Of a stretch of DNA of 45,041 nucleotides, positions 1-45,033 are shown in pieces; positions within the stretch are counted from its first letter, which is position 1, and every line of letters begins with the position of its first letter. This DNA comes from Acinetobacter phage Arbor. The DNA lies in the sequence record ON237674.1, one strand, 5' to 3'. The notes below the pieces were generated by a model. That model was not told the DNA's origin, did not search any database, and saw nothing but the letters and a program-made list of their open reading frames with translations. Made by a program: the position numbers and the translations under genes.

Positions 1-24
1 TTCTTGCATTAATTATAAATATAA

Positions 25-39
25 TTTACTATTGAGAAT
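25..39 (+). promoter_or_regulatory. Copy 1 of conserved motif TTTACTATTGAGAAT(ATAAA), 19 nt upstream of the 58..318 start
   Basis: Exact 15-mer shared with 7220..7234, 36008..36022 and 41174..41188. Followed by a strong SD (AAGAGGAG). Confidence 0.5.
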
Positions 40-57
40 ATAAAGAGGAGAGATAAA

Positions 58-318
58 ATGGTTCTAGTTAAAGCTTTATGGTTAGCAATTGTTGATGTGG
101 CTAAGATGTTTAAGTGTTCACCGAAACTGTTTGCTGAGTTAGTTTTGTATGTAACTCATGTGGTTTTGGCTTTGGCTGGTGTTTTATCTTTAATCTTAAG
201 TGTGGTTTTGTTTCCGTTAATTGTGGTGCGTAAATACAAGGTATTGAAAAATGGATCACCAAAAAGAGTTAAGGGTAAATCTAAGGGTATTAAAGTACGC
301 GGTAACAGATTTGCTTAG
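58..318 (+). CDS. small membrane protein (2 predicted TM helices, basic C-terminal tail)
   Basis: Hydrophobic stretches LWLAIVDVA / VLALAGVLSLILSVVLFPLIVV. SD AAGAGGAG 7 nt upstream. Confidence 0.55.
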   Translation: MVLVKALWLAIVDVAKMFKCSPKLFAELVLYVTHVVLALAGVLSLILSVVLFPLIVVRKYKVLKNGSPKRVKGKSKGIKVRGNRFA

Positions 319-2295: not shown

Positions 2296-2312
2296 CGCGG
2301 TTTTTCTTTTTG
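2284..2312 (+). terminator. rho-independent terminator
   Basis: AAACCGC-TTTAA-CGCGGTTT hairpin followed by a T-run. Confidence 0.6.
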
Positions 2313-2360
2313 TGGTATTATTTTGGGAGGCTAACTTATTTATTTTAGGGCTTTTTAAAT

Positions 2361-6593: not shown

Positions 6594-6879
6594 TACAGTT
6601 AATTGGATGTGATAAGCATAAGTGAAAGCGCACATCGACACGGCAATCCGTTTCACTAACTGTAAATTTGTAAAACCAATAACCCATATCAAAACAACTG
6701 ATTTGTATTTTTAGATTGTTTTGGTATTATTTAAATCATGGAGTATGACTACAATATCATGTAGCATTGGTAAAAATTACTGCGCGCCTTGGTTGGTTTG
6801 TAATTTTTGCGGATGTGTGAAGTCGCTTCTGTAATTGATCGAATCTGTGGGCGACACAGTGAATATCATTAGACTAGGA

Positions 6880-6990
6880 GTACCTTCAAAGGGACATAGC
6901 AAAGCAACTATTCGCACGTTGCCGATCAATAGGCAAGACAGATGGCTAAAATGTTCTGTTGTTTTCGGTATTGGCACGAGAAACCGATGA
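6880..6990 (+). pseudogene. decayed remnant related to ORF 379..729
   Basis: 19-mer ATCAATAGGCAaGACaGAT (6929..6947) matches ATCAATAGGCAgGACgGAT at 573..591 (17/19 identical). Translated remnant ...TIRTLPINRQDRW... vs ...ACRSLNINRQDGF... Interrupted by stops. Confidence 0.3.
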
Positions 6991-7219
6991 CCGCCTGAAA
7001 GTAGGCAACTTAGAGAAGTGAATAGCTTAGGTGCTAGAATATTGCAGTTCACATTATAAGATTGAATTAATTACTCAATTGGTTTTTGTGGCGGTGGGAT
7101 TGATCAACCATTGTAAAATACTGTTTTATTGGCGAGTTCGACTCTCCCATGTTCACTTCATCTAAGTTTATTTAGAACCATCCTAACGGGTGGTTTTATT
7201 TTGTCTAAACTATTTTAGA

Positions 7220-7234
7220 TTTACTATTGAGAAT
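7220..7234 (+). promoter_or_regulatory. Copy 2 of motif TTTACTATTGAGAAT
   Basis: Exact 15-mer. Downstream AATAGT forms an inverted repeat with ACTATT. Precedes the 7283 cassette. Confidence 0.5.
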
Positions 7235-7282
7235 TATATTTAATAGTGGTAAGATTTAGTTATTCAGCAGAAGGGGTTTGAA

Positions 7283-9734: not shown

Positions 9735-9747
9735 GGGCTTTTTTTAT
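9720..9747 (+). terminator. rho-independent terminator closing the moron cassette
   Basis: AGCCCCTTCGCTGAGGGCT hairpin followed by TTTTTTT. Confidence 0.65.
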
Positions 9748-9793
9748 AACCATTACTTGCTATAATCAAGAAAAGTGATATAGGTGAGTAAAA

Positions 9794-11636: not shown

Positions 11637-12644
11637 ATGACTCAACAATATTCAAGCGCTGACATTCAAGCGATTAACTTGGCATTAGGGACAAATTTCC
11701 CTCTTGATGCTCAAACAATCGCTATGGACTCTTATGTGGCTGGTGCTGCTCAGACTGCACCTAACGCTGGTATTCCAGCAATGCTCACCACATTCTTATC
11801 GCCTAAGTGGATCGAGTTTTTAACCGCTCCAATGAATGCGGCAAAGGCATTTGATGAGAAACAATTTGGTGATCGTGTTACAACGAACATCGCAATCCCT
11901 ACTTTCGAGCTTTACGGTGAAACGTCTAGTTATGGCGATTTTAACGATAACGGCATGTCAAATGACAACGAAAACTACGAATACCGTCAACCGTATGCGT
12001 ATCAAACCAATATTAAAATTGGTGAGATTGCGGAAGAGCGTGCGGCGGCGGCTCGTTTTAGTTTGGTTGAGCGCCAAATTCAAGCGACCACACTTACATT
12101 AAATAAAACGCAAAACGCTATTTATTTATATGGTGTGCAAGGTCTTAAAAACTATGGCTTGTTGAATGATCCTGATTTGTTGCCTGATTCTGTGGGCGCA
12201 AACTGGGCAATTTTAGATTCATTGGGTTTATATAATGAAGTCCTTAAGTTGTTCACTCAACTGGTAACTCAGTCTAATGGTCTTGTTCAGGAAACTGACG
12301 CAATGACTTTGGTATTGTCGCCTAAGATGAATGCACGCTTACTTGCATCTAACCAATATGGCTTGAATGCAATGAAGTACATCAAGGATAACCTACCGAA
12401 CCTTAAGATTGTTCCAATCCCTGAATACTCGACTGATGCTGGTGAGAAAGTTCAATTAGTGCTTGATTCATATATGGGTCAAGAAACGATTCACTTGGGC
12501 TTTGTTGATAAGTTGCGTACTCACAAGGTGGAAGTTAAAACTTCTGGATTCTTGCAAAAACGCTCTCAGTCAACTATCGGTGCGATCATCTACTATCCGA
12601 TGCTTGTTGCTAATATGCTTGCATCTTATGATGAAACACCCTGA
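11637..12644 (+). CDS. major capsid protein (lambda E-like / DUF2184-type)
   Basis: 335 aa. Strong SD AAGGAGAG. Gene order protease-decoration-MCP. Strong terminator downstream. Confidence 0.65.
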   Translation: MTQQYSSADIQAINLALGTNFPLDAQTIAMDSYVAGAAQTAPNAGIPAMLTTFLSPKWIEFLTAPMNAAKAFDEKQFGDRVTTNIAIPTFELYGETSSYGDFNDNGMSNDNENYEYRQPYAYQTNIKIGEIAEERAAAARFSLVERQIQATTLTLNKTQNAIYLYGVQGLKNYGLLNDPDLLPDSVGANWAILDSLGLYNEVLKLFTQLVTQSNGLVQETDAMTLVLSPKMNARLLASNQYGLNAMKYIKDNLPNLKIVPIPEYSTDAGEKVQLVLDSYMGQETIHLGFVDKLRTHKVEVKTSGFLQKRSQSTIGAIIYYPMLVANMLASYDETP

Positions 12645-13086: not shown

Positions 13087-13539
13087 ATGTCTAACGTTTT
13101 CGTTTTCGATCCTGCTGCGTTTAAGCTTTCTTATCCGCAGTTTGCAAAGTTCACTAATGAACAGCTAACAAACTTCTTTGAGGAAGTAGAAAACACTATT
13201 GTTGATAACACTGAGTCATCTTGCTTTAGTTTAAAAGATCGCAAGAAGCGGTTTTATCTTTTAGTGGCTCATAACGCAGAATTGCAAAATAGGATCAATG
13301 ACGGAAACACTGGCTTGGTTGGTCGTATTAGCTCTGCTACAGAAGGTTCTGTATCTATTAGCACTGATTACTCTATGGGTAGCGGTGCTTTAGAGCAATG
13401 GCTTAAACAAACACCTTACGGTGCTAAGTTCTATGCGTTTACTGCGCCATATCGCACGGCATTGTGGGTAGCTGCTACTGCTCCTATGCCAGTTGAACGC
13501 ACTAAATGGCCTTATCCTTTTGGGTGGGGTAATTATTAG
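13087..13539 (+). CDS. putative head-tail connector / head completion protein
   Basis: 150 aa, position after the MCP. Confidence 0.4.
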   Translation: MSNVFVFDPAAFKLSYPQFAKFTNEQLTNFFEEVENTIVDNTESSCFSLKDRKKRFYLLVAHNAELQNRINDGNTGLVGRISSATEGSVSISTDYSMGSGALEQWLKQTPYGAKFYAFTAPYRTALWVAATAPMPVERTKWPYPFGWGNY

Positions 13540-13941: not shown

Positions 13942-14517
13942 GATTTACCCCTAAATCTTATTTAAGTTAACTAATACTATATAGATATATGCTATTGGTG
14001 AGATTCTGAGAGAAAAAGTTAATATTCATCCTAAGACAGTCTTTTTTAAAAAAACTATCTTGAACATTAACTTTATCAAAGTATGCTACTGGAGCCGACC
14101 CTTCGATTAAAGTCCGAAATCATTGTTAAACATATTTCGGTTGCTAGTTACCCTGATTTAACTCAGTCCAAGCTCTGCCTAGCACGCCATTTCTGACTAT
14201 TCCAACAGATTCCTGTTTGCTTGACCCTCACAGTACAGGATTGTTTAAGCTATGCGCTGCCGTTATAGTTGTTCCGACCACATAACCGATTTACTTAGTT
14301 TCACACTGGTTGTAAGTAACAGATAAATTATAGCATCTGATCAAAAATCGTTAAGTGAAAATAATTCATCTTCGATTTCATTTATTGTTAATTCATTCAT
14401 CTATGCAAATTTTGCATAATTAGAATTATTCATCAAATTTAAATAAAGTGAATTTTATTCATGTTTATGCATTGGTAGTGAATGGTGCTAAACTTAGCAA
14501 AAGTGGAGGGCTACTCA

Positions 14518-14954
14518 TGACAATAAAACGCACAGGCTCACTAGACCAAGCATTAAACCGCTTGATTTCTAGTAATGATCAGTATGTAAAGGCTGGTGTA
14601 TTGGAAGGGTCTAAATATCCAGATGGCACTAGCGTTGCTACTGTGGCTTATAAGAACGAATACGGATTTAAGAACATTCCTAGTCGCCCATTTATGAGAA
14701 CCACTGTAAGAGAGCAAAAGGATGCTTGGGTAGAGCTAACCAAAAAAGGTATTAAAGCTGGATACACACTAGAGCATACACTTAATTTGGTTGGGTTGAG
14801 TATGCAGAATGAGATTCAGTATTCTATTATGATATGGAGTGAGCCACCAAACGCACCAGCAACTATTGCAGCCAAAGGATTTGACGCGCCATTAAGGGAT
14901 AGTTTGCTCATGCATGACAGCATTAAATACGAAGTTGTTGAGGGTAAACTATGA
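14518..14954 (+). CDS. tail/neck protein (hypothetical)
   Basis: SD GGAGGG before ATG 14518. The ORF-track start at 14448 is probably too early. Confidence 0.45.
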
Positions 14955-33688: not shown

Positions 33689-33867
33689 TTAGAAATCTCC
33701 AATAATTTAAGTAATGTTTCCTGTCTTTCTTGATGCTGAATATCTCTATATTCATGCATACGCTTTCTGTATTCTTTAGAGTCAATCACATTCATTTGAT
33801 AAGCTGTTTCGATTGACCAGAAGTAAGCGTCTGCACCATGTTCTTTCACATCGTCAAGCCAACTCAT
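33685..33867 (-). CDS. hypothetical small protein
   Basis: 60 aa, coupled. Confidence 0.4.
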   Translation of the reverse strand: MSWLDDVKEHGADAYFWSIETAYQMNVIDSKEYRKRMHEYRDIQHQERQETLLKLLEISK

Positions 33868-34199
33868 TACATTTTCTCCGCAATTTCATTTTCAATAACT
33901 TGAACAATGTTTGATACTTCTTCGCTAGGCAAAACATAGTTTTCTGTTTCACCATCTTCATTGTAAACTTTAACGTCATTTACAGATTCAACCTCAACAT
34001 CATTCCATGATTGGAATCCGTTGCCATCTTTAAAGAATCTACCTTCAAACTCAACTTCTAAAACTAAATCACCAGATTTAATGGCAGCTACGTTATGTTC
34101 CATATCTAATGATTCAACTTCATAAGGACCAGTAATAACTGGTTTACCTGAACATGCAGCTAACGCAACAGAAGCAGCTAAAATCAATGCATTTTTCAT
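33867..34199 (-). CDS. lipoprotein (signal peptide + lipobox)
   Basis: MKNALILAASVALAACSG: signal peptide with lipobox LAAC. Confidence 0.55.
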   Translation of the reverse strand: MKNALILAASVALAACSGKPVITGPYEVESLDMEHNVAAIKSGDLVLEVEFEGRFFKDGNGFQSWNDVEVESVNDVKVYNEDGETENYVLPSEEVSNIVQVIENEIAEKM

Positions 34200-34291
34200 A
34201 ATGTTTACCCATTGTTTATATTCTCAATAGTAAATGAATTGAGTATTAATGTCAAGCGCAAATATTAAAAAAGCTCCCGAAGGAGCTAATT

Positions 34292-34615: not shown

Positions 34616-35431
34616 TCAACCACCAATAGAACCCTTCAAGAAGAATAGCGCCGTTAAAATTGCAATAACAATTAAAATAATGATTCGCTCGCGCTTGATC
34701 TTCGATTTAAGGCTATTTACATCCTCTTCAGATTGCTTGTATTGATTAACAAAGTAATCCAATTCAACTTTTGTTCGATCCAAATCAATTTTTGCACCAA
34801 TAAGATTTCCTTCTACCTCGACCAGTGTATTAATATCCTTATCATGAATTTTCTTAGCTTCATCGTTTTGTTTGATTAGTCCACTGATTGCCAAGTCTTT
34901 ACTTTCGATGATCTTTTTGAGATCCGAAATTTCTTTGTCTTTCTCGCCATCTTGGTGTTTTTGAACTGAAAGATCATTTATAGATACTGGAATATTTAAT
35001 TCAGAAGCGCATCGTGCATACTCTTTTTCCTTGCAGCGCTGCTCAAATTCCAAAAGTTCGTCAATTTCTTTAATAACTTTATTCTGAACCTTCTCGCTTT
35101 GCGGCTGGTTAAGCATCTTAGCGATATAGGGGCGAGATTTACCCATCTTTAAAGATAGTTCACTATTATTTAAACCAAGTTCTTTTTTGGCTTGGTGGAT
35201 TTTTTTGATCATATCGTTTTCTGAATATCTTTTCATAAATTCTTCAAAACTAATTTTGCGTCCAGCAGAAAAATCTGAAAACCAAAATGTCTGACCAAAA
35301 CCAACGGTAATATTCTGATCTCCCGTTGAATACGTATCATTTCGAAGCCCATGAAATCTTAATAACTTTTCCGCTTCATTTCTTTGATTTAAATCTTCAC
35401 ACATAATAGCGATATTTTCGATCTTCATCTT
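34616..35431 (-). CDS. repressor-like HTH protein with coiled coil and C-terminal transmembrane anchor (no S24 peptidase domain)
   Basis: HTH IKKIHQAKKELGLNNSELSLKMGKSRPYIAKML, a long charged coiled coil, and a C-terminal RIIILIVIAILTALFFL. SD AGGAG before MKIENIA. Divergent from the 35530 gene. Confidence 0.5.
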   Translation of the reverse strand, partial: KMKIENIAIMCEDLNQRNEAEKLLRFHGLRNDTYSTGDQNITVGFGQTFWFSDFSAGRKISFEEFMKRYSENDMIKKIHQAKKELGLNNSELSLKMGKSRPYIAKMLNQPQSEKVQNKVIKEIDELLEFEQRCKEKEYARCASELNIPVSINDLSVQKHQDGEKDKEISDLKKIIESKDLAISGLIKQNDEAKKIHDKDINTLVEVEGNLIGAKIDLDRTKVELDYFVNQYKQSEEDVNSLKSKIKRERIIILIVIAILTALFFLKGSIGG

Positions 35432-35529
35432 TGTTTCTCCTGTTAAGATAATCACTATAGTAAACTAATATTTATAATTTGCAATAGTTAATTTAATAAA
35501 CTACAATGAAGAAAAATTAGGAGTTTAAA
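35432..35529. promoter_or_regulatory. divergent promoter/operator (putative genetic switch)
   Basis: AT-rich. Palindromic 8-mer ACTATAGT (35454..35461). ATAGTAAACTA is the reverse complement of the motif core TAGTTTACTAT. AATAGTT/AAACTA repeats. Confidence 0.45.
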
Positions 35530-35955
35530 ATGAAAGTATTGAAAGTTTTTGAAGGAACAGCAGAAGTGGTTGATTTTGAATTAACTACTCGAAGCTTCTT
35601 CTATAAAGGAGAAAAGTTAAAGCACGAGCCAAATAGCAAAAAAACAGGTTTGCTAGCAAAGCGCAAAGTCTCAGATGATAATGAGCCAGAATATTTCTAC
35701 AGCCTAAATAGTGACTACGTAAAAGAAAACCACCCTAAGTTATTTACAGGGATGCGTAGTGTTGACTGGCCAAAAATTATTGATGAAGTATTTAAATACA
35801 ACAACATTTCTCAACATCAGCTTGGGAATATGACTGGGATTTCAACTGCATATATTCAGTGGTTGCGTGAAGGCGTTCGCAAAAACCCAAGTTTTGAAAT
35901 GGGAATGGCTATTATAAACCTACACCCAAACAAAAAAGAACTTTTGGAAATTTAA
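35530..35955 (+). CDS. Cro/CII-like regulator with C-terminal HTH
   Basis: C-terminal ISQHQLGNMTGISTAYIQWLREG is an XRE-type HTH. First rightward gene. Confidence 0.45.
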   Translation: MKVLKVFEGTAEVVDFELTTRSFFYKGEKLKHEPNSKKTGLLAKRKVSDDNEPEYFYSLNSDYVKENHPKLFTGMRSVDWPKIIDEVFKYNNISQHQLGNMTGISTAYIQWLREGVRKNPSFEMGMAIINLHPNKKELLEI

Positions 35956-35971
35956 TAACTTATAGCAAATC

Positions 35972-35998
35972 AACCCTCCTAGTGAGGGTTTTATTTTG
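35972..35998 (+). terminator. rho-independent terminator
   Basis: CCCTCCTAGTGAGGG hairpin followed by TTTTATTTT. Confidence 0.6.
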
Positions 35999-36007
35999 CT
36001 TATATAG

Positions 36008-36022
36008 TTTACTATTGAGAAT
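36008..36022 (+). promoter_or_regulatory. Copy 3 of motif TTTACTATTGAGAAT
   Basis: Exact 15-mer, upstream of the 36060 gene. Confidence 0.5.
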
Positions 36023-36059
36023 TAATTAGGTAAGATTGTTTTTATTTGGAGTTAATAAA

Positions 36060-36500: not shown

Positions 36501-36545
36501 CCCTTTATATAAGTTTTTCTTATTTTGTATATTTGAATTATTTAT

Positions 36546-36574
36546 TAGACATAACTAATAAAACATCACATAAT
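36546..36574 (+). promoter_or_regulatory. sigma70-like promoter P1 (TAGACA-N17-CATAAT)
   Basis: The -35/-10 pair with 17-nt spacer is near-identical to the element at 37758..37786. Both share flanking TTATTTATTAGACA and ATAATGAC...AAAAGGAGA. Confidence 0.5.
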
Positions 36575-37705: not shown

Positions 37706-37757
37706 TCATAAAAACTTTTGGTTATTAATTTACATACTAATCATTAAATTTATTTAT

Positions 37758-37786
37758 TAGACAATATATTATTTATATACAATAAT
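37758..37786 (+). promoter_or_regulatory. sigma70-like promoter P2 (TAGACA-N17-AATAAT)
   Basis: Twin of 36546..36574. Confidence 0.5.
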
Positions 37787-38231: not shown

Positions 38232-38255
38232 ACGAGGGCTTAGCGCCCTTTTTTA
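38232..38255 (+). terminator. rho-independent terminator
   Basis: AGGGCTTAGCGCCCT hairpin followed by TTTTTTATTT. A TTGACA hexamer follows immediately (38256..38261). Confidence 0.6.
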
Positions 38256-38318
38256 TTTGACAAAAGACTTGCTTTGTATAAAATTTTATATAAAATATCA
38301 TGTAAACAGGAGAAAGAA

Positions 38319-38541: not shown

Positions 38542-39285
38542 ATGTTTTATTACAAAAAAAACATTGGCGACTACTACAAAAAAACTGGTCGGCTATCAAT
38601 GCTTGAGCACGGAGCGTACACGCTTTTGATTGATGCGTGTTATGACCGTGAACGCTTCCCTACGCTTGATGAGGCTTTGGACTGGACTTGGGCAAGAACT
38701 GACGCAGAAATAGAGGCAGTTAAGTTTATTTTAAGTAAGTTCTTTACTCTTGATGGTGATATTTACGTTCAGAAACGTATTCAAGATGAACTTGATAAAT
38801 ATCACGCTATGTCTGAACAAAACTCAAGAATAGCCAAAGAGCGTGAGGAAAAACGCAGGAATCGTAAACGAATCGAGCACGAAGCGTGCACGGATGGTGA
38901 ACAAGTCGTAAACGAAGCGCCACCTAACCAAGAACCAAGAACCAAGAACCAAGAACCAAATATACATACACAGGACAAGCCTGTGAAATTTGTGTTCAAG
39001 AAGAAATTGGAAGAATTTGGAGCTGATACTAAGTTGGCTTCAGACTGGCTTGTGGTCAGAAAAGGGAAGAATGCAGCTAACACAGAAACGGCTTTGAATG
39101 GTTTTATGTCTCAAGTCGAAAAGTCTGGTCTTGATGTAAACACTGTTTTAAAGATTTGCGTTGATAACTCTTGGAGTGGTTTTAAACAAAGCTGGTTGGC
39201 AAACATAAACATGAGTGATTACTTGGAACAACCAAAACAAGTAACTGAGCAAAAAACTAATGATTTTGAGTGGGCAGAATTTTAA
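38542..39285 (+). CDS. replication initiation / primosomal protein (DUF1376, YdaU-like N-terminus)
   Basis: MFYYKKNIGDYYKKTGRLSMLEHGAYTLLID pattern of DUF1376. Immediately upstream of dnaB. Confidence 0.5.
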   Translation: MFYYKKNIGDYYKKTGRLSMLEHGAYTLLIDACYDRERFPTLDEALDWTWARTDAEIEAVKFILSKFFTLDGDIYVQKRIQDELDKYHAMSEQNSRIAKEREEKRRNRKRIEHEACTDGEQVVNEAPPNQEPRTKNQEPNIHTQDKPVKFVFKKKLEEFGADTKLASDWLVVRKGKNAANTETALNGFMSQVEKSGLDVNTVLKICVDNSWSGFKQSWLANINMSDYLEQPKQVTEQKTNDFEWAEF

Positions 39286-41140: not shown

Positions 41141-41160
41141 TTCAAAAAACAGTTGCAATT

Positions 41161-41188
41161 ATTCTCAATAGTGTTTACTATTGAGAAT
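41161..41188. promoter_or_regulatory. Copy 4 of the motif, here as a perfect inverted repeat ATTCTCAATAGT-gttt-ACTATTGAGAAT
   Basis: 12-bp arms are exact reverse complements. Located 24 nt before the Imm-like gene. Confidence 0.55.
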
Positions 41189-41211
41189 ATAAATTAACAG
41201 AGAGTTTTATT

Positions 41212-41424
41212 ATGGAATTGGTTTTAGTTGTTTCAGTAATTATGTATTTAGCGCCTAGCATTATTGGTTTTATGCGTGGGCATGCAAGTAAATGGGCAAT
41301 CCTTGCAATGAATTTGTTTTTGGGTTGGTCTGTTTTGTTCTGGTTCTGGAGCTTATTCTGGTCATTATCAAATAAGGGTGGCAATCAAACAGTGATCGTA
41401 AATAATCAGATCAACAGCAAATGA
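41212..41424 (+). CDS. superinfection immunity protein (Imm-like, PF14373-type membrane protein)
   Basis: YLAPSIIGFMRGHASKWAILAMNLFLGWSVLFWFWSLFWSL matches the conserved core of T4 Imm-family proteins. Confidence 0.55.
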   Translation: MELVLVVSVIMYLAPSIIGFMRGHASKWAILAMNLFLGWSVLFWFWSLFWSLSNKGGNQTVIVNNQINSK

Positions 41425-44961: not shown

Positions 44962-45000
44962 AAATTTGCTATAGTTAGTGAACTTAAGAAACTTTTTATA

Positions 45001-45033
45001 TCCGTATCTAACCCCAAGATGCGGATTTTTTTT
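45001..45033 (+). terminator. rho-independent terminator
   Basis: TCCGTATCT...AGATGCGGA hairpin followed by TTTTTTTT. Confidence 0.55.

What the first reader, a model, noticed from the sequence alone, without database searches (positions are those of the whole stretch)
41161..41188. Recurrent 15-nt motif TTTACTATTGAGAAT (4 exact copies, one a perfect 12-bp palindrome) marks accessory gene starts
Exact copies lie at 25..39, 7220..7234, 36008..36022 and 41174..41188. Each sits 20-50 nt upstream of a small accessory gene or cassette: a membrane protein, the 3-kb moron cassette, zinc-ribbon proteins, and the Imm-like superinfection immunity gene. At 41161..41188 the motif forms a perfect inverted repeat (ATTCTCAATAGT/ACTATTGAGAAT), the shape expected of a dimeric DNA-binding-protein site. 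Its half-site ACTAT/ATAGT also occurs as the palindrome ACTATAGT, and as the reverse-complemented core ATAGTAAACTA, inside the divergent switch region 35432..35529. The motif does not fit a canonical -35/-10 geometry. It may therefore be an operator for the phage repressor or another regulator that co-regulates moron genes, or a phage-specific promoter class.
Basis: seen in the sequence. Interest (0 to 1): 0.7.

Follow-up and report, generated by a model that had tools for sequence, protein, structure and literature searches.

The report
Shared 15-bp core of phage promoters
An exact 15-base word repeated five times in this Acinetobacter phage genome is the shared core of five promoters that each open a block of early or accessory genes, and its letter-perfect conservation across related phages suggests one phage protein controls them all together.

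Summary
TTTACTATTGAGAAT occurs five times, not four (25+, 7220+, 34220-, 36008+, 41174+), far beyond chance. The window is an Obolenskvirus (Acinetobacter phage MRABphi22-like, ~45 kb, regarded as lytic). Across 19 related genomes or contigs, 64 of 68 copies are exact at the same map positions, while flanks, terminators and spacers diverge.

The claim that the motif does not fit -35/-10 geometry is wrong. At 25, 34220 and 41174 the internal TACTAT lies exactly 17 nt downstream of TTGCAT, TTGACA or TTGCAA. Across relatives the -35, the spacing and the motif are fixed while the spacer varies freely, which is the signature of a sigma-70 promoter. Four of five copies directly follow an intrinsic terminator and open a transcription unit. 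The palindrome at 41161-41188 is real in this window, but its left arm lies in that free spacer and decays in relatives.

A -10 role alone does not explain 15 invariant bases. At 7220 and 36008 the motif supplies the -35 instead, and in phage fThrA a reversed copy fills another promoter's spacer. Three nearby promoters lack the motif. The gp61 promoter shares TTTACTAT but varies downstream.

Best reading: a co-regulated promoter set sharing a factor-binding site. The factor is unproven; the candidate is gp61, an HTH protein with a membrane-anchor tail. Nothing like it appears in the literature searched. Interest is moderate.

The parts
25..39 (+). Motif copy 1 (class I). TACTAT at 27-32 serves as the -10. 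The predicted transcription start is A40. It drives gp1 (58-318) through gp8.
   Evidence: Exact match. TTGCAT at 4-9 lies exactly 17 nt upstream. By circular continuity the copy follows terminator 45000-45026. It is conserved in all relatives, with one T15C variant.
4..9 (+). -35 hexamer TTGCAT of the promoter at copy 1.
   Evidence: 17-nt spacing to TACTAT. The hexamer is invariant in 9 haplotypes.
45000..45026 (+). Intrinsic terminator that ends the RusA operon. It lies immediately upstream of copy 1 on the circular map.
   Evidence: Contiguity is shown by WCHABP1, LZ35 and Ab59, where the same junction is internal to the record.
7173..7198 (+). Intrinsic terminator directly upstream of copy 2.
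   Evidence: 11-bp stem followed by a T-tract.
7220..7234 (+). Motif copy 2 (class II). TTGAGA at 7227-7232 is read as the -35. It drives gp14 (7283) and the small-gene cassette ahead of the head genes.
   Evidence: Exact match. TTGAGA-17-TGgTAAGAT scores 9/12 with an extended -10. Relatives have TAAGAT or TATGAT and keep the TGn and the TAnnAT positions. In phiAC-1 the orthologous site upstream of the same gene is a plain TTGCGT-17-TATAAT promoter with its -10 at a matching distance from the ATG.
7250..7255 (+). -10-like hexamer TAAGAT (preceded by TGg) paired with the motif's TTGAGA.
34220..34234 (-). TACTAT at 34232-34227 serves as the -10. It drives gp59 (33867-34199) and the RecT/exonuclease operon.
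   Evidence: Exact match. TTGACA-17-TACTAT scores 10/12. Across 11 haplotypes the -35 varies at 0 of 6 positions, the spacer at 9 of 15 and the motif at 0 of 15.
34250..34255 (-). -35 hexamer TTGACA of the promoter at copy 3.
34272..34287 (-). Intrinsic terminator after gp61/gp60, directly upstream of copy 3.
35972..35990 (+). Intrinsic terminator after gp62, directly upstream of copy 4.
   Evidence: In L136 and L138 it is replaced by different hairpins at the same distance from the motif.
36008..36022 (+). Motif copy 4 (class II). TTTACT at 36008-36013 is read as the -35, with TAAGAT at 36031-36036 as the -10. It drives gp63/gp64 at the head of the rightward early region.
   Evidence: Exact match. 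There is no -35 for TACTAT here. A TAnnAT hexamer lies exactly 17 nt after TTTACT in three flank contexts: TAAGAT, TAGGAT in L136, and TGaTAATAT in LZ35-type genomes, where both flanks are unrelated.
41153..41158 (+). -35 hexamer TTGCAA of the promoter at copy 5.
   Evidence: 17-nt spacing to TACTAT. It is kept in relatives; L136 has TTGCAT at 16 nt.
41160..41172 (+). Left arm of the inverted repeat. It is a reverse-complement partial motif copy lying in the promoter spacer.
   Evidence: Perfect 13-bp stem in this window. The arm varies among relatives and is absent in L136 and L138.
41174..41188 (+). Motif copy 5 (class I). TACTAT at 41176-41181 serves as the -10. The predicted start is A41189. 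It drives gp74 (Imm_superinfect, 41212-41424) through RusA.
   Evidence: Exact match. Pfam hit for gp74. Variants T9C and T2C each occur in one relative.
35450..35491 (-). Two motif-like 15-mers in the gp61/gp62 switch region: TTTACTATAGTGATT (the -10 of the gp61 promoter) and TTAACTATTGCAAAT. The second contains the palindromic TTGCAA at 35479-35484, which is the -35 for both divergent promoters.
   Evidence: In L138 both sites read TTTACTATTGCAAA(T/C).
34616..35431 (-). gp61, the candidate trans-factor. It has a hypervariable N-terminal domain, an invariant XRE-like HTH, a long helix and a C-terminal hydrophobic tail anchor.
   Evidence: Binding to the motif is not shown.
35530..35955 (+). 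gp62, a protein with a C-terminal Cro/CI-like HTH. It probably acts on the switch region rather than on the motif.
   Evidence: Matches a solved phage immunity repressor, 8bny, at E = 4.6e-5. Its two alleles co-vary with the switch sequence while the motif is invariant.

Best explanation
The five 15-mers are the cores of five host-RNA-polymerase (sigma-70 type) promoters. Each opens a separate transcription unit of this lytic Acinetobacter myovirus, and four of them lie immediately after an intrinsic terminator.

At three copies (25, 34220-, 41174) the internal TACTAT is the -10 hexamer. A TTGnnn -35 lies exactly 17 nt upstream. Transcription would start at the A just after the motif (T/A/T at -1/+1/+2), giving 19-24 nt leaders.

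At the other two copies (7220, 36008) the motif lacks an upstream -35. It instead supplies a -35-like hexamer (TTGAGA or TTTACT) 17 nt upstream of a downstream TAnnAT.

All 15 bases are invariant in different promoter registers, and only a subset of the phage's promoters carries the word. The most likely reason for the exact identity is that the 15-mer is also the binding site of one phage-encoded DNA-binding protein. That protein would overlap the core promoter and switch all five units together, most simply by occluding RNA polymerase for early shut-off or immunity-like repression. The best candidate is gp61, whose HTH is as invariant as the motif.

Shown: the repeats, their conservation, the promoter geometry and the terminator-promoter layout. 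Inferred: start sites, the timing class, the existence of the factor and its identity.
For: Non-random repeat:
- 5 exact copies against at most 2 for any 15-mer in 100 shuffles.

Conservation:
- 64 of 68 instances are exact in 19 genomes or contigs, including AP22, AB1, IME-AB2, LZ35, WCHABP1/12, YMC-13-01-C62, Ab59, fThrA and IME-Ap7.
- Seven different flank contexts share exactly these 15 nt with sharp edges.

Promoter geometry:
- TTG lies at exactly 17 nt in 3 of 5 motif TACTATs. Among the 15 other TACTATs, two have TTG at 16-18 nt; one of those is the gp61 promoter, leaving 1 of 14 as background.
- fThrA's sixth copy has TTGAGA at 16 nt.
- The -35 and motif are fixed while the spacer varies: 22 of 45 spacer positions against 3 of 45 motif positions, Fisher p = 1e-5.
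- Terminators lie directly upstream at four copies.
- A. baumannii uses canonical RpoD motifs and prefers A at +1 with pyrimidines at -1 and +2 (PMC6182133), which matches T|A|T after the discriminator.
- The outlier phage phiAC-1 lacks the motif. It has a plain sigma-70 promoter at the orthologous site and its own five-member promoter family.

More than a -10 element:
- The motif sits in different registers at 7220 and 36008.
- The motif is reverse-complemented inside the -35/spacer of TTGCAT-17-TATAAT in fThrA.
- Promoters at 36546, 37758 and 38257 and the late extended -10 promoters lack it.
- The gp61 promoter shares TTTACTAT, but its downstream half differs between lineages: AGTGATT, AGGGAAT, TGCAAAT.
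- Two motif-like sites lie in the regulator's own switch region, where about 0.01 would be expected by chance.
- The two halves of the motif almost never occur apart.

Candidate factor:
- The gp61 HTH (residues ~75-125) is invariant across 24 alleles that are down to 50% identical overall.
- gp61 is present in every motif-bearing genome and absent from phiAC-1.
- The HTH fold is XRE/lambda-repressor-like, on weak evidence.
Against: - No transcription start site or binding data exist for any member of this phage group.
- The class II geometry rests on AT-rich hexamers that could be chance, so those two copies might also use TACTAT with the terminator T-tract acting as an UP-like element.
- phiAC-1's promoter family also conserves non-contact spacer bases without gp61. 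Extended promoter identity can therefore arise without the proposed factor, for example by concerted evolution or selection on promoter kinetics.
- The 15-mer is not dyad-symmetric, and the only palindromic arrangement is not conserved.
- gp61 carries a predicted membrane anchor, which is unusual for a repressor. Its HTH matches are weak (HTH_3 at 18 bits, below Pfam's cut-off; Foldseek E >= 0.16).
- The gp61-motif co-occurrence is a single phylogenetic contrast.
- gp4 (HTH_8) fits the same profile.
Confidence: 0.6

Rival explanations
1. Pure promoter element. The 15-mer is only the RNA-polymerase contact region (-14 to +1: upstream T-tract, -10, discriminator, start site) of a family of strong early promoters. 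No dedicated phage factor is involved. The exact identity reflects selection on promoter kinetics or start-site choice, plus copying between sites.
For: - Class I geometry and the fixed -35 / free spacer / fixed motif pattern.
- Co-orientation with genes at 5 of 5 copies.
- Sigma-70 holoenzyme makes sequence-specific contacts from about -17 to +2 (established knowledge).
- phiAC-1's promoter family also shows extended identity.
- The four single-base variants (T2C, T9C, G12T, T15C) all fall outside TACTAT.
Against: - It does not explain the two copies without a -35 or TGn, nor the reverse-oriented copy in fThrA's G33 promoter spacer.
- The gp61 promoter works with the same TTTACTAT but a freely varying downstream half.
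- TACTAT and TGAGAA are non-consensus yet never drift toward consensus.
- Other promoters in the same region lack the word.
Confidence: 0.25
2. Dual-function switch site. One factor bound to the 15-mer represses the class I promoters, where it covers -10/+1, and activates the class II promoters, where it replaces the -35. This would produce an early-to-middle transition, as phi29 p4 or lambda CI do at paired promoters.
For: - Class I copies have good -35 hexamers and would be constitutively active.
- Class II copies lack a consensus -35 for TACTAT and carry the motif in the -35 region.
- Copy 2 heads toward the head-gene region.
Against: - The motif centre sits about 7 bp apart relative to the downstream -10 at 7220 and 36008. 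That places a bound factor on different helical faces, which is unusual for an activator.
- TTGAGA and TTTACT are adequate -35 hexamers on their own.
- No expression data exist.
Confidence: 0.1
3. Dyad-symmetric repressor operator of a temperate phage. A dimeric repressor binds the palindrome and its half-sites to silence moron genes in a lysogen.
For: - A perfect 13-bp inverted repeat at 41160-41189.
- A CI/Cro-like divergent HTH gene pair.
- Motif-like sites in the switch region.
Against: - The left arm decays or is absent in relatives, and four of five copies have no partner arm.
- The 15-mer has only 3 of 7 self-complementary pairs.
- The annotation shows no integrase, and the genus is reported as lytic (PMC12859838).
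- No prophage or plasmid form was found.
- gp62 alleles change while the motif does not.
Confidence: 0.04
4. RNA-level element or recombination scar. The motif acts in read-through transcripts as a hairpin or processing site, or it is merely microhomology left by module exchange.
For: - The hairpin at 41150-41200 folds at -16.4 kcal/mol, z = -5.9.
- Mosaic joints coincide with the motif at the 36008-type site in LZ35.
- The phage encodes RecT or Erf plus an exonuclease.
Against: - The hairpin is not conserved, and the other copies have no stem.
- Terminators just upstream limit read-through.
- A scar would decay like the adjacent spacers, but it does not.
- There is no Rfam match.
Confidence: 0.02

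Closest known systems
Sigma-70 (RpoD) promoter families of lytic phages with extended shared sequence, for example T4 early promoters (own knowledge)
   Same: Both are multiple host-polymerase promoters within one phage genome that share far more sequence than the -35/-10 hexamers. They head early transcription units, and the -35 and -10 sit at 17 nt. T4's early -35 reads GTTTAC, which resembles TTTACT here.
   Different: Here the shared block is 15 contiguous invariant bases centred on the -10/discriminator, not the -35/UP region. It appears in different registers at different promoters, there are only 5-6 copies, and no start sites have been mapped.
Operators and stoperators of Cluster A mycobacteriophages (L5 gp71 type; PMC9283540)
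   Same: An asymmetric short site (13 bp there, 15 bp here) is repeated across the genome in intergenic positions. Its orientation correlates with the direction of transcription. At least one site overlaps a promoter, and the repeat is exactly conserved within a genome.
   Different: Those phages have more than 20 sites and are temperate. Their repressor is a monomeric two-domain protein that also blocks elongation. Here there are 5-6 sites, all at unit starts just after terminators, so initiation rather than elongation is the plausible target. There is no lysogeny module and no homologue of that repressor was looked for or seen. One copy in fThrA is reversed.
Lambda-type CI/Cro divergent switch with OR/OL operators (own knowledge)
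   Same: A divergent HTH gene pair has overlapping back-to-back promoters. Motif-like sites overlap those promoters, and leftward and rightward early operons flank the switch symmetrically.
   Different: The operators here would be asymmetric single sites rather than tandem dyads. Terminators insulate the regulators from the early operons. There is no integrase and no evidence of lysogeny. gp61 has a membrane tail anchor and no S24 peptidase domain.
phiAC-1 promoter family GTTGCnnT(T/A)AATTTTATA-N7-TAnnAT (found here)
   Same: It belongs to a related phage, has five copies at equivalent kinds of positions (one of them orthologous), lies after terminators, and shows extended identity beyond the polymerase contact hexamers.
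   Different: The sequence is unrelated. Its conserved block covers the -35 plus spacer in a single register, and that phage lacks gp61, gp62 and gp4.

Membership tests
Sigma-70 type bacterial promoter | A -10 hexamer of the form TAnnnT. | tested here: met
   TACTAT lies inside every copy. Class II copies additionally have TAAGAT, TATGAT, TAGGAT or TAATAT downstream.
Sigma-70 type bacterial promoter | A -35 hexamer TTGnnn lying 16-18 nt upstream of the -10. | tested here: met
   Met at 25, 34220 and 41174 (exactly 17 nt) and at fThrA's sixth copy (16 nt). At 7220 and 36008 it is met only if the motif itself supplies the -35 for a downstream -10.
Sigma-70 type bacterial promoter | An evolutionary signature of conserved hexamers and spacing with a free spacer. 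| tested here: met
   22 of 45 spacer positions are variable against 3 of 45 motif positions. The -35 is invariant at the 25-type and 34220-type sites.
Sigma-70 type bacterial promoter | A mapped primary transcript 5' end about 7 nt downstream of the -10. | not testable with these tools
   No transcriptome or 5'-end data for this phage group were found.
Dyad-symmetric repressor operator (lambda/434/P22 type) | An inverted-repeat half-site arrangement that is conserved. | tested here: not met
   The 15-mer has 3 of 7 self-complementary pairs (direct reading of the sequence). The only inverted pair, at 41160-41189, is degenerate or absent in relatives.
Dyad-symmetric repressor operator (lambda/434/P22 type) | The site overlaps core promoter elements. 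| tested here: met
   All copies overlap a -10 or -35 in the best geometry.
Dyad-symmetric repressor operator (lambda/434/P22 type) | A cognate repressor binds the site. | not testable with these tools
   This needs EMSA, footprinting or ChIP. gp61 and gp62 are only candidates.
Stoperator system (Cluster A mycobacteriophage) | An asymmetric site whose orientation correlates with the direction of transcription. | tested here: met
   5 of 5 copies in the window are co-oriented. The exception is the reversed sixth copy in fThrA.
Stoperator system (Cluster A mycobacteriophage) | Many sites (more than 20) scattered in short intergenic gaps within operons, acting on elongation. | tested here: not met
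   There are only 5-6 sites, all at unit starts and four of them directly after terminators.
Stoperator system (Cluster A mycobacteriophage) | A temperate lifestyle with an immunity repressor. | tested here: not met
   No integrase is annotated. The genus is described as lytic. No prophage or plasmid form was found.
Phage-encoded RNA polymerase or sigma-factor promoter class (T7, N4, phiEco32 types) | The phage encodes its own RNA polymerase or sigma factor. | tested here: not met
   No such gene is annotated. The only 'putative RNA polymerase' (14448-14954) has no Pfam domain and is annotated as a head protein in relatives. PMC12859838 states that the phage encodes no RNAP.
T4 MotA-box middle promoters | An activator box at a fixed position (-30) replaces the -35, and MotA and AsiA homologues are present. 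| tested here: not met
   The motif's position relative to the -10 is not fixed. No MotA or AsiA annotation or Pfam hit appeared among the proteins scanned. Not every ORF was scanned.

The most novel reading that the evidence does not exclude
The 15-mer is the operator of gp61, a tail-anchored membrane protein with an invariant XRE-type HTH and a hypervariable N-terminal domain. By binding five promoter cores plus its own switch region, gp61 would tether and silence the early transcription units of a supposedly strictly lytic phage at the cell membrane. That would amount to a membrane-coupled immunity or early shut-off circuit built from single asymmetric sites. It might also act on incoming genomes of related phages, which all carry the same word.
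Probability: 0.15. Interest if true: 0.7.

Novelty: new member of a known kind. Interest (0 to 1): 0.4.

Why it matters
Obolenskviruses are among the phages most often isolated and proposed for therapy against carbapenem-resistant A. baumannii, yet I found no study of their transcription programme. This analysis gives a concrete map:
- five insulated terminator-promoter units sharing one 15-bp word;
- a divergent switch whose two promoters share one palindromic -35;
- a second small promoter family;
- extended -10 late promoters.

It also yields testable predictions for start sites and for a common regulator. If a single factor controls all five promoters, it is a handle for engineering these phages or predicting cross-immunity between them. 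If not, the motif is still a ready-made strong promoter core for Acinetobacter. Conceptually it is an ordinary kind of thing, a phage promoter or operator family, rather than a new mechanism.

Tried and rejected
- Phage-polymerase promoter: rejected because no RNAP or sigma gene is present.
- Alternative geometry with TTGAGA as the -35 at class I copies: rejected because the matching -10-like hexamers overlap the start codons, so transcripts would lack them (reading).
- RNA hairpin or processing site: the stem at 41150-41200 is strong in this window but is not conserved.
- tRNA or known RNA family near copy 2: none found.
- Host or prophage origin: the 20-mer is absent from Acinetobacter in the species-representative genome collection, where only 7 chance hits in unrelated taxa appeared. 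The switch region has no match in plasmids. gp61 homologues occur only on phage-sized contigs.
- IMG/VR scan with the bare 15-mer: mostly single chance hits, so uninformative.
- Co-occurrence test of gp61 with the motif outside the group: impossible, because gp61 is confined to the group.
- SutA-like RNAP-binding domain flagged in one relative's gp76 homologue: not reproduced for the window protein.
- Out-group Aeromonas phage vB_AsaM-56: no analogous repeat.
- Literature: no paper contains the motif, and no Obolenskvirus transcriptome was found.
- Foldseek of the gp61 model: no significant whole-chain match.

Full report
**What the window is.** The right 15 kb is 100% identical to Acinetobacter phage MRABphi22, and 79 of the 83 matching records are Acinetobacter phages. 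The deposited annotation matches the window at its left end and becomes offset, by about 112 nt in total, from the tail genes onward. Relatives are classified in the genus Obolenskvirus, a group of ~45-kb A. baumannii myoviruses with circular maps. The literature describes the genus as lytic, without an integrase and without its own RNA polymerase (PMC12859838). The window's end and start are contiguous on the circular map, because the same junction is internal in WCHABP1, LZ35 and Ab59.

**Checking the observation.**
- It is the most repeated long word in the window.
- No 15-mer exceeds 2 copies in 100 Markov-1 shuffles.
- All five copies point the same way as the gene that follows, which starts 18-48 nt downstream.
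- The inverted repeat at 41161-41188 is real and is in fact 13 bp per arm.
- Two 12/15 matches lie in the 98-nt gp61/gp62 intergenic region, where about 0.01 would be expected.

**Conservation.** Every whole genome examined has the five copies at equivalent positions. fThrA has a sixth.
- The sample comprises 19 genomes or contigs.
- 64 of 68 instances are exact. The four variants are single substitutions: T2C, T9C, G12T and T15C.
- Flanks are not conserved in the same way. At the 36008-type site, LZ35-type phages have unrelated sequence on both sides of the intact motif, and L136 and L138 have different terminators.
- Seven flank contexts share exactly these 15 nt.

**It does fit promoter geometry.** At copies 25, 34220 and 41174, a TTGnnn hexamer (TTGCAT, TTGACA, TTGCAA) lies exactly 17 nt upstream of the motif's TACTAT.
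- Among the other 15 TACTATs in the window, two have TTG at 16-18 nt, and one of those is the gp61 promoter.
- The comparative pattern is decisive. At the 34220-type site the -35, the 17-nt spacing and the motif never change across 11 haplotypes, while 9 of the 15 spacer positions do.
- Pooled over the class I sites, 22 of 45 spacer positions vary against 3 of 45 motif positions (p = 1e-5).
- A. baumannii uses canonical RpoD -10/-35 motifs. It starts mostly at A, with pyrimidines at -1 and +2 (PMC6182133). The shared class I 20-mer TTTACTATTGAGAAT|ATAAA places T/A/T there, giving leaders of 19-24 nt that contain the ribosome-binding sites.
- Four of the five copies directly follow an intrinsic terminator: 45000-45026, 7173-7198, 34287-34272(-) and 35972-35990. 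The motif therefore marks the start of insulated transcription units: gp1-gp8, the gp14-gp21 cassette, the RecT/exonuclease operon, gp63-gp64, and gp74(Imm)-RusA.
- The outlier phage phiAC-1 (host A. soli) lacks the motif. Upstream of the orthologue of gp14 it has a textbook TTGCGT-17-TATAAT promoter, one of five copies of its own promoter family. That independently identifies these positions as promoters.

**The palindrome.** The left arm at 41160-41172 lies in the spacer of the 41174 promoter. It behaves like spacer, with many variants among relatives (attatagatagt, attctcgatagt, attgcggatagt and others), and it is absent in L136 and L138. The argument for a dimeric operator shape therefore fails, as does an RNA-hairpin function (one search shows a strong fold in this window only).

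**Why a -10 role alone is not enough.**
1. Copies 7220 and 36008 have no -35 and no TGn for TACTAT.
   - TTGAGA (7220) and TTTACT (36008) each lie exactly 17 nt upstream of a TAnnAT hexamer. That hexamer keeps its key positions through substitutions (TAAGAT, TATGAT, TAGGAT) and also appears in an unrelated flank (TGaTAATAT in LZ35).
   - At 7220 this downstream -10 sits at the same distance from the ATG as phiAC-1's TATAAT.
2. In fThrA the sixth copy is reverse-complemented inside the -35/spacer of a near-consensus TTGCAT-17-TATAAT promoter for the moron G33.
3. Three other terminator-promoter junctions in the early region (36546, 37758, 38257) and the late extended -10 promoters lack the word.
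4. The gp61 promoter uses the same TTTACTAT, but its downstream half differs between lineages (AGTGATT, AGGGAAT, TGCAAAT). The five motif promoters keep TGAGAAT in those same lineages.
5. The two halves of the motif almost never occur apart.

Together these points favour an additional, sequence-specific reader of the whole 15 bp that is shared by this subset of promoters.

**Who might read it.**
- gp62 (35530-35955) has a C-terminal HTH similar to a solved phage immunity repressor (8bny, E = 4.6e-5). It exists as two alleles with different recognition helices that co-vary with the switch-region sequence, while the motif is unchanged. It probably acts on the switch, not on the motif.
- gp61 (34616-35431) has a hypervariable N-terminal domain, an HTH segment that is invariant in 24 alleles down to 50% overall identity, a very long helix and a C-terminal hydrophobic tail. 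Its HTH is weakly XRE/lambda-repressor-like.
- gp61 homologues occur only in this phage group. They are present in all motif-bearing genomes and absent from phiAC-1, as is gp4, a small Fis-type HTH protein.
- This evidence is circumstantial. Binding is not shown, and a membrane anchor is unusual for a repressor.

**Verdict.** The finding is a real, strongly conserved regulatory word. It is the shared core of five sigma-70-type promoters (confidence about 0.85). It is probably also the site of a common phage factor that co-regulates them (about 0.5), with gp61 the best but weak candidate (about 0.2). The confidence of 0.6 given for the best explanation is for the composite. In kind this is a phage promoter/operator family. 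It appears undescribed for this genus, since no paper in the library contains the sequence, and it is moderately interesting.

Noticed in passing
window 35432-35529: The divergent gp61 and gp62 promoters share one palindromic -35 hexamer, TTGCAA at 35479-35484. Rightward it reads TTGCAA-17-TACAAT and leftward TTGCAA-16-TACTAT. RNA polymerase should therefore be able to occupy only one promoter at a time, which gives a compact built-in switch. The annotated GTG start of gp61 at 35455 is probably wrong. ATG 35431, which has an AGGAG ribosome-binding site, fits better.
   Followed up: partly
window 34616-35431 (-): gp61 has an odd architecture: a hypervariable ~70-aa N-terminal alpha/beta domain, an invariant XRE-like HTH, a ~120-residue helix, and a C-terminal hydrophobic tail anchor (RERIIILIVIAILTALFFLKGSIGG). 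Its 74 homologue clusters all lie on contigs of at most 47.6 kb.
   Followed up: partly
window 6594-7200: A ~600-nt gap without annotated genes lies between the head-morphogenesis gene and terminator 7173-7198. The stretch 6760-7200(+) folds much better than shuffles (z = -4.4) and has no Rfam or tRNA hit, so it may be a structured non-coding RNA. Ab59 and fThrA carry different sequence there.
   Followed up: partly
window 38926-38960: About five tandem copies of the heptamer AACCAAG lie inside the replication-initiator (O-like) gene 38542-39285. This resembles the iteron origin inside lambda's O gene.
   Followed up: no
window 36539-36574 and 37751-37786: A second small promoter family was seen. 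TTATTTATTAGACA...(C/A)ATAATGAC occurs twice (TAGACA-17-CATAAT and TAGACA-17-AATAAT), each just after a terminator. A near-consensus TTGACA-16-TAAAAT lies at 38257-38284, after terminator 38234-38250.
   Followed up: no
window 2296-2360 and 9735-9793: The late packaging and head operons are preceded by a terminator and then an extended -10 sequence without a -35: TGgTATTAT before terS and TGcTATAAT before the protease. This suggests a distinct late promoter class that may need an activator. gp4 (1030-1263, Fis-type HTH_8) is a candidate.
   Followed up: no
L124 (fThrA) 13355-13427: A sixth motif copy (13371-13385, minus strand) overlaps face-to-face with a near-consensus plus-strand promoter, TTGCAT-17-TATAAT, for the moron G33. 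On the minus strand it also forms TTGAGA-16-TACTAT, pointing antisense into the late tail-completion genes.
   Followed up: partly
L126 (phiAC-1) 6581, 8450, 15012, 30042, 40140: The outlier phage phiAC-1 has its own five-member promoter family, GTTGCnnT(T/A)AATTTTATA-N7-TAnnAT, with a conserved spacer. It lacks gp61, gp62 and gp4.
   Followed up: partly
window 58-318, 33867-34199(-), 41212-41424: The first gene after two of the three class I copies encodes an envelope protein: gp59, with a lipoprotein-type signal (MKNALILAASVALAAC), and gp74, a superinfection-immunity family protein. The pattern suggests these promoters quickly establish envelope or exclusion functions.
   Followed up: no
window 11637-12644: The major capsid gene is mosaic within the genus. 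Acinetobacter relatives carry capsid alleles at about 100%, 59% and 42% protein identity. More distant relatives are Aeromonas, Burkholderia (Bcep1), Ralstonia and Xanthomonas myoviruses.
   Followed up: no
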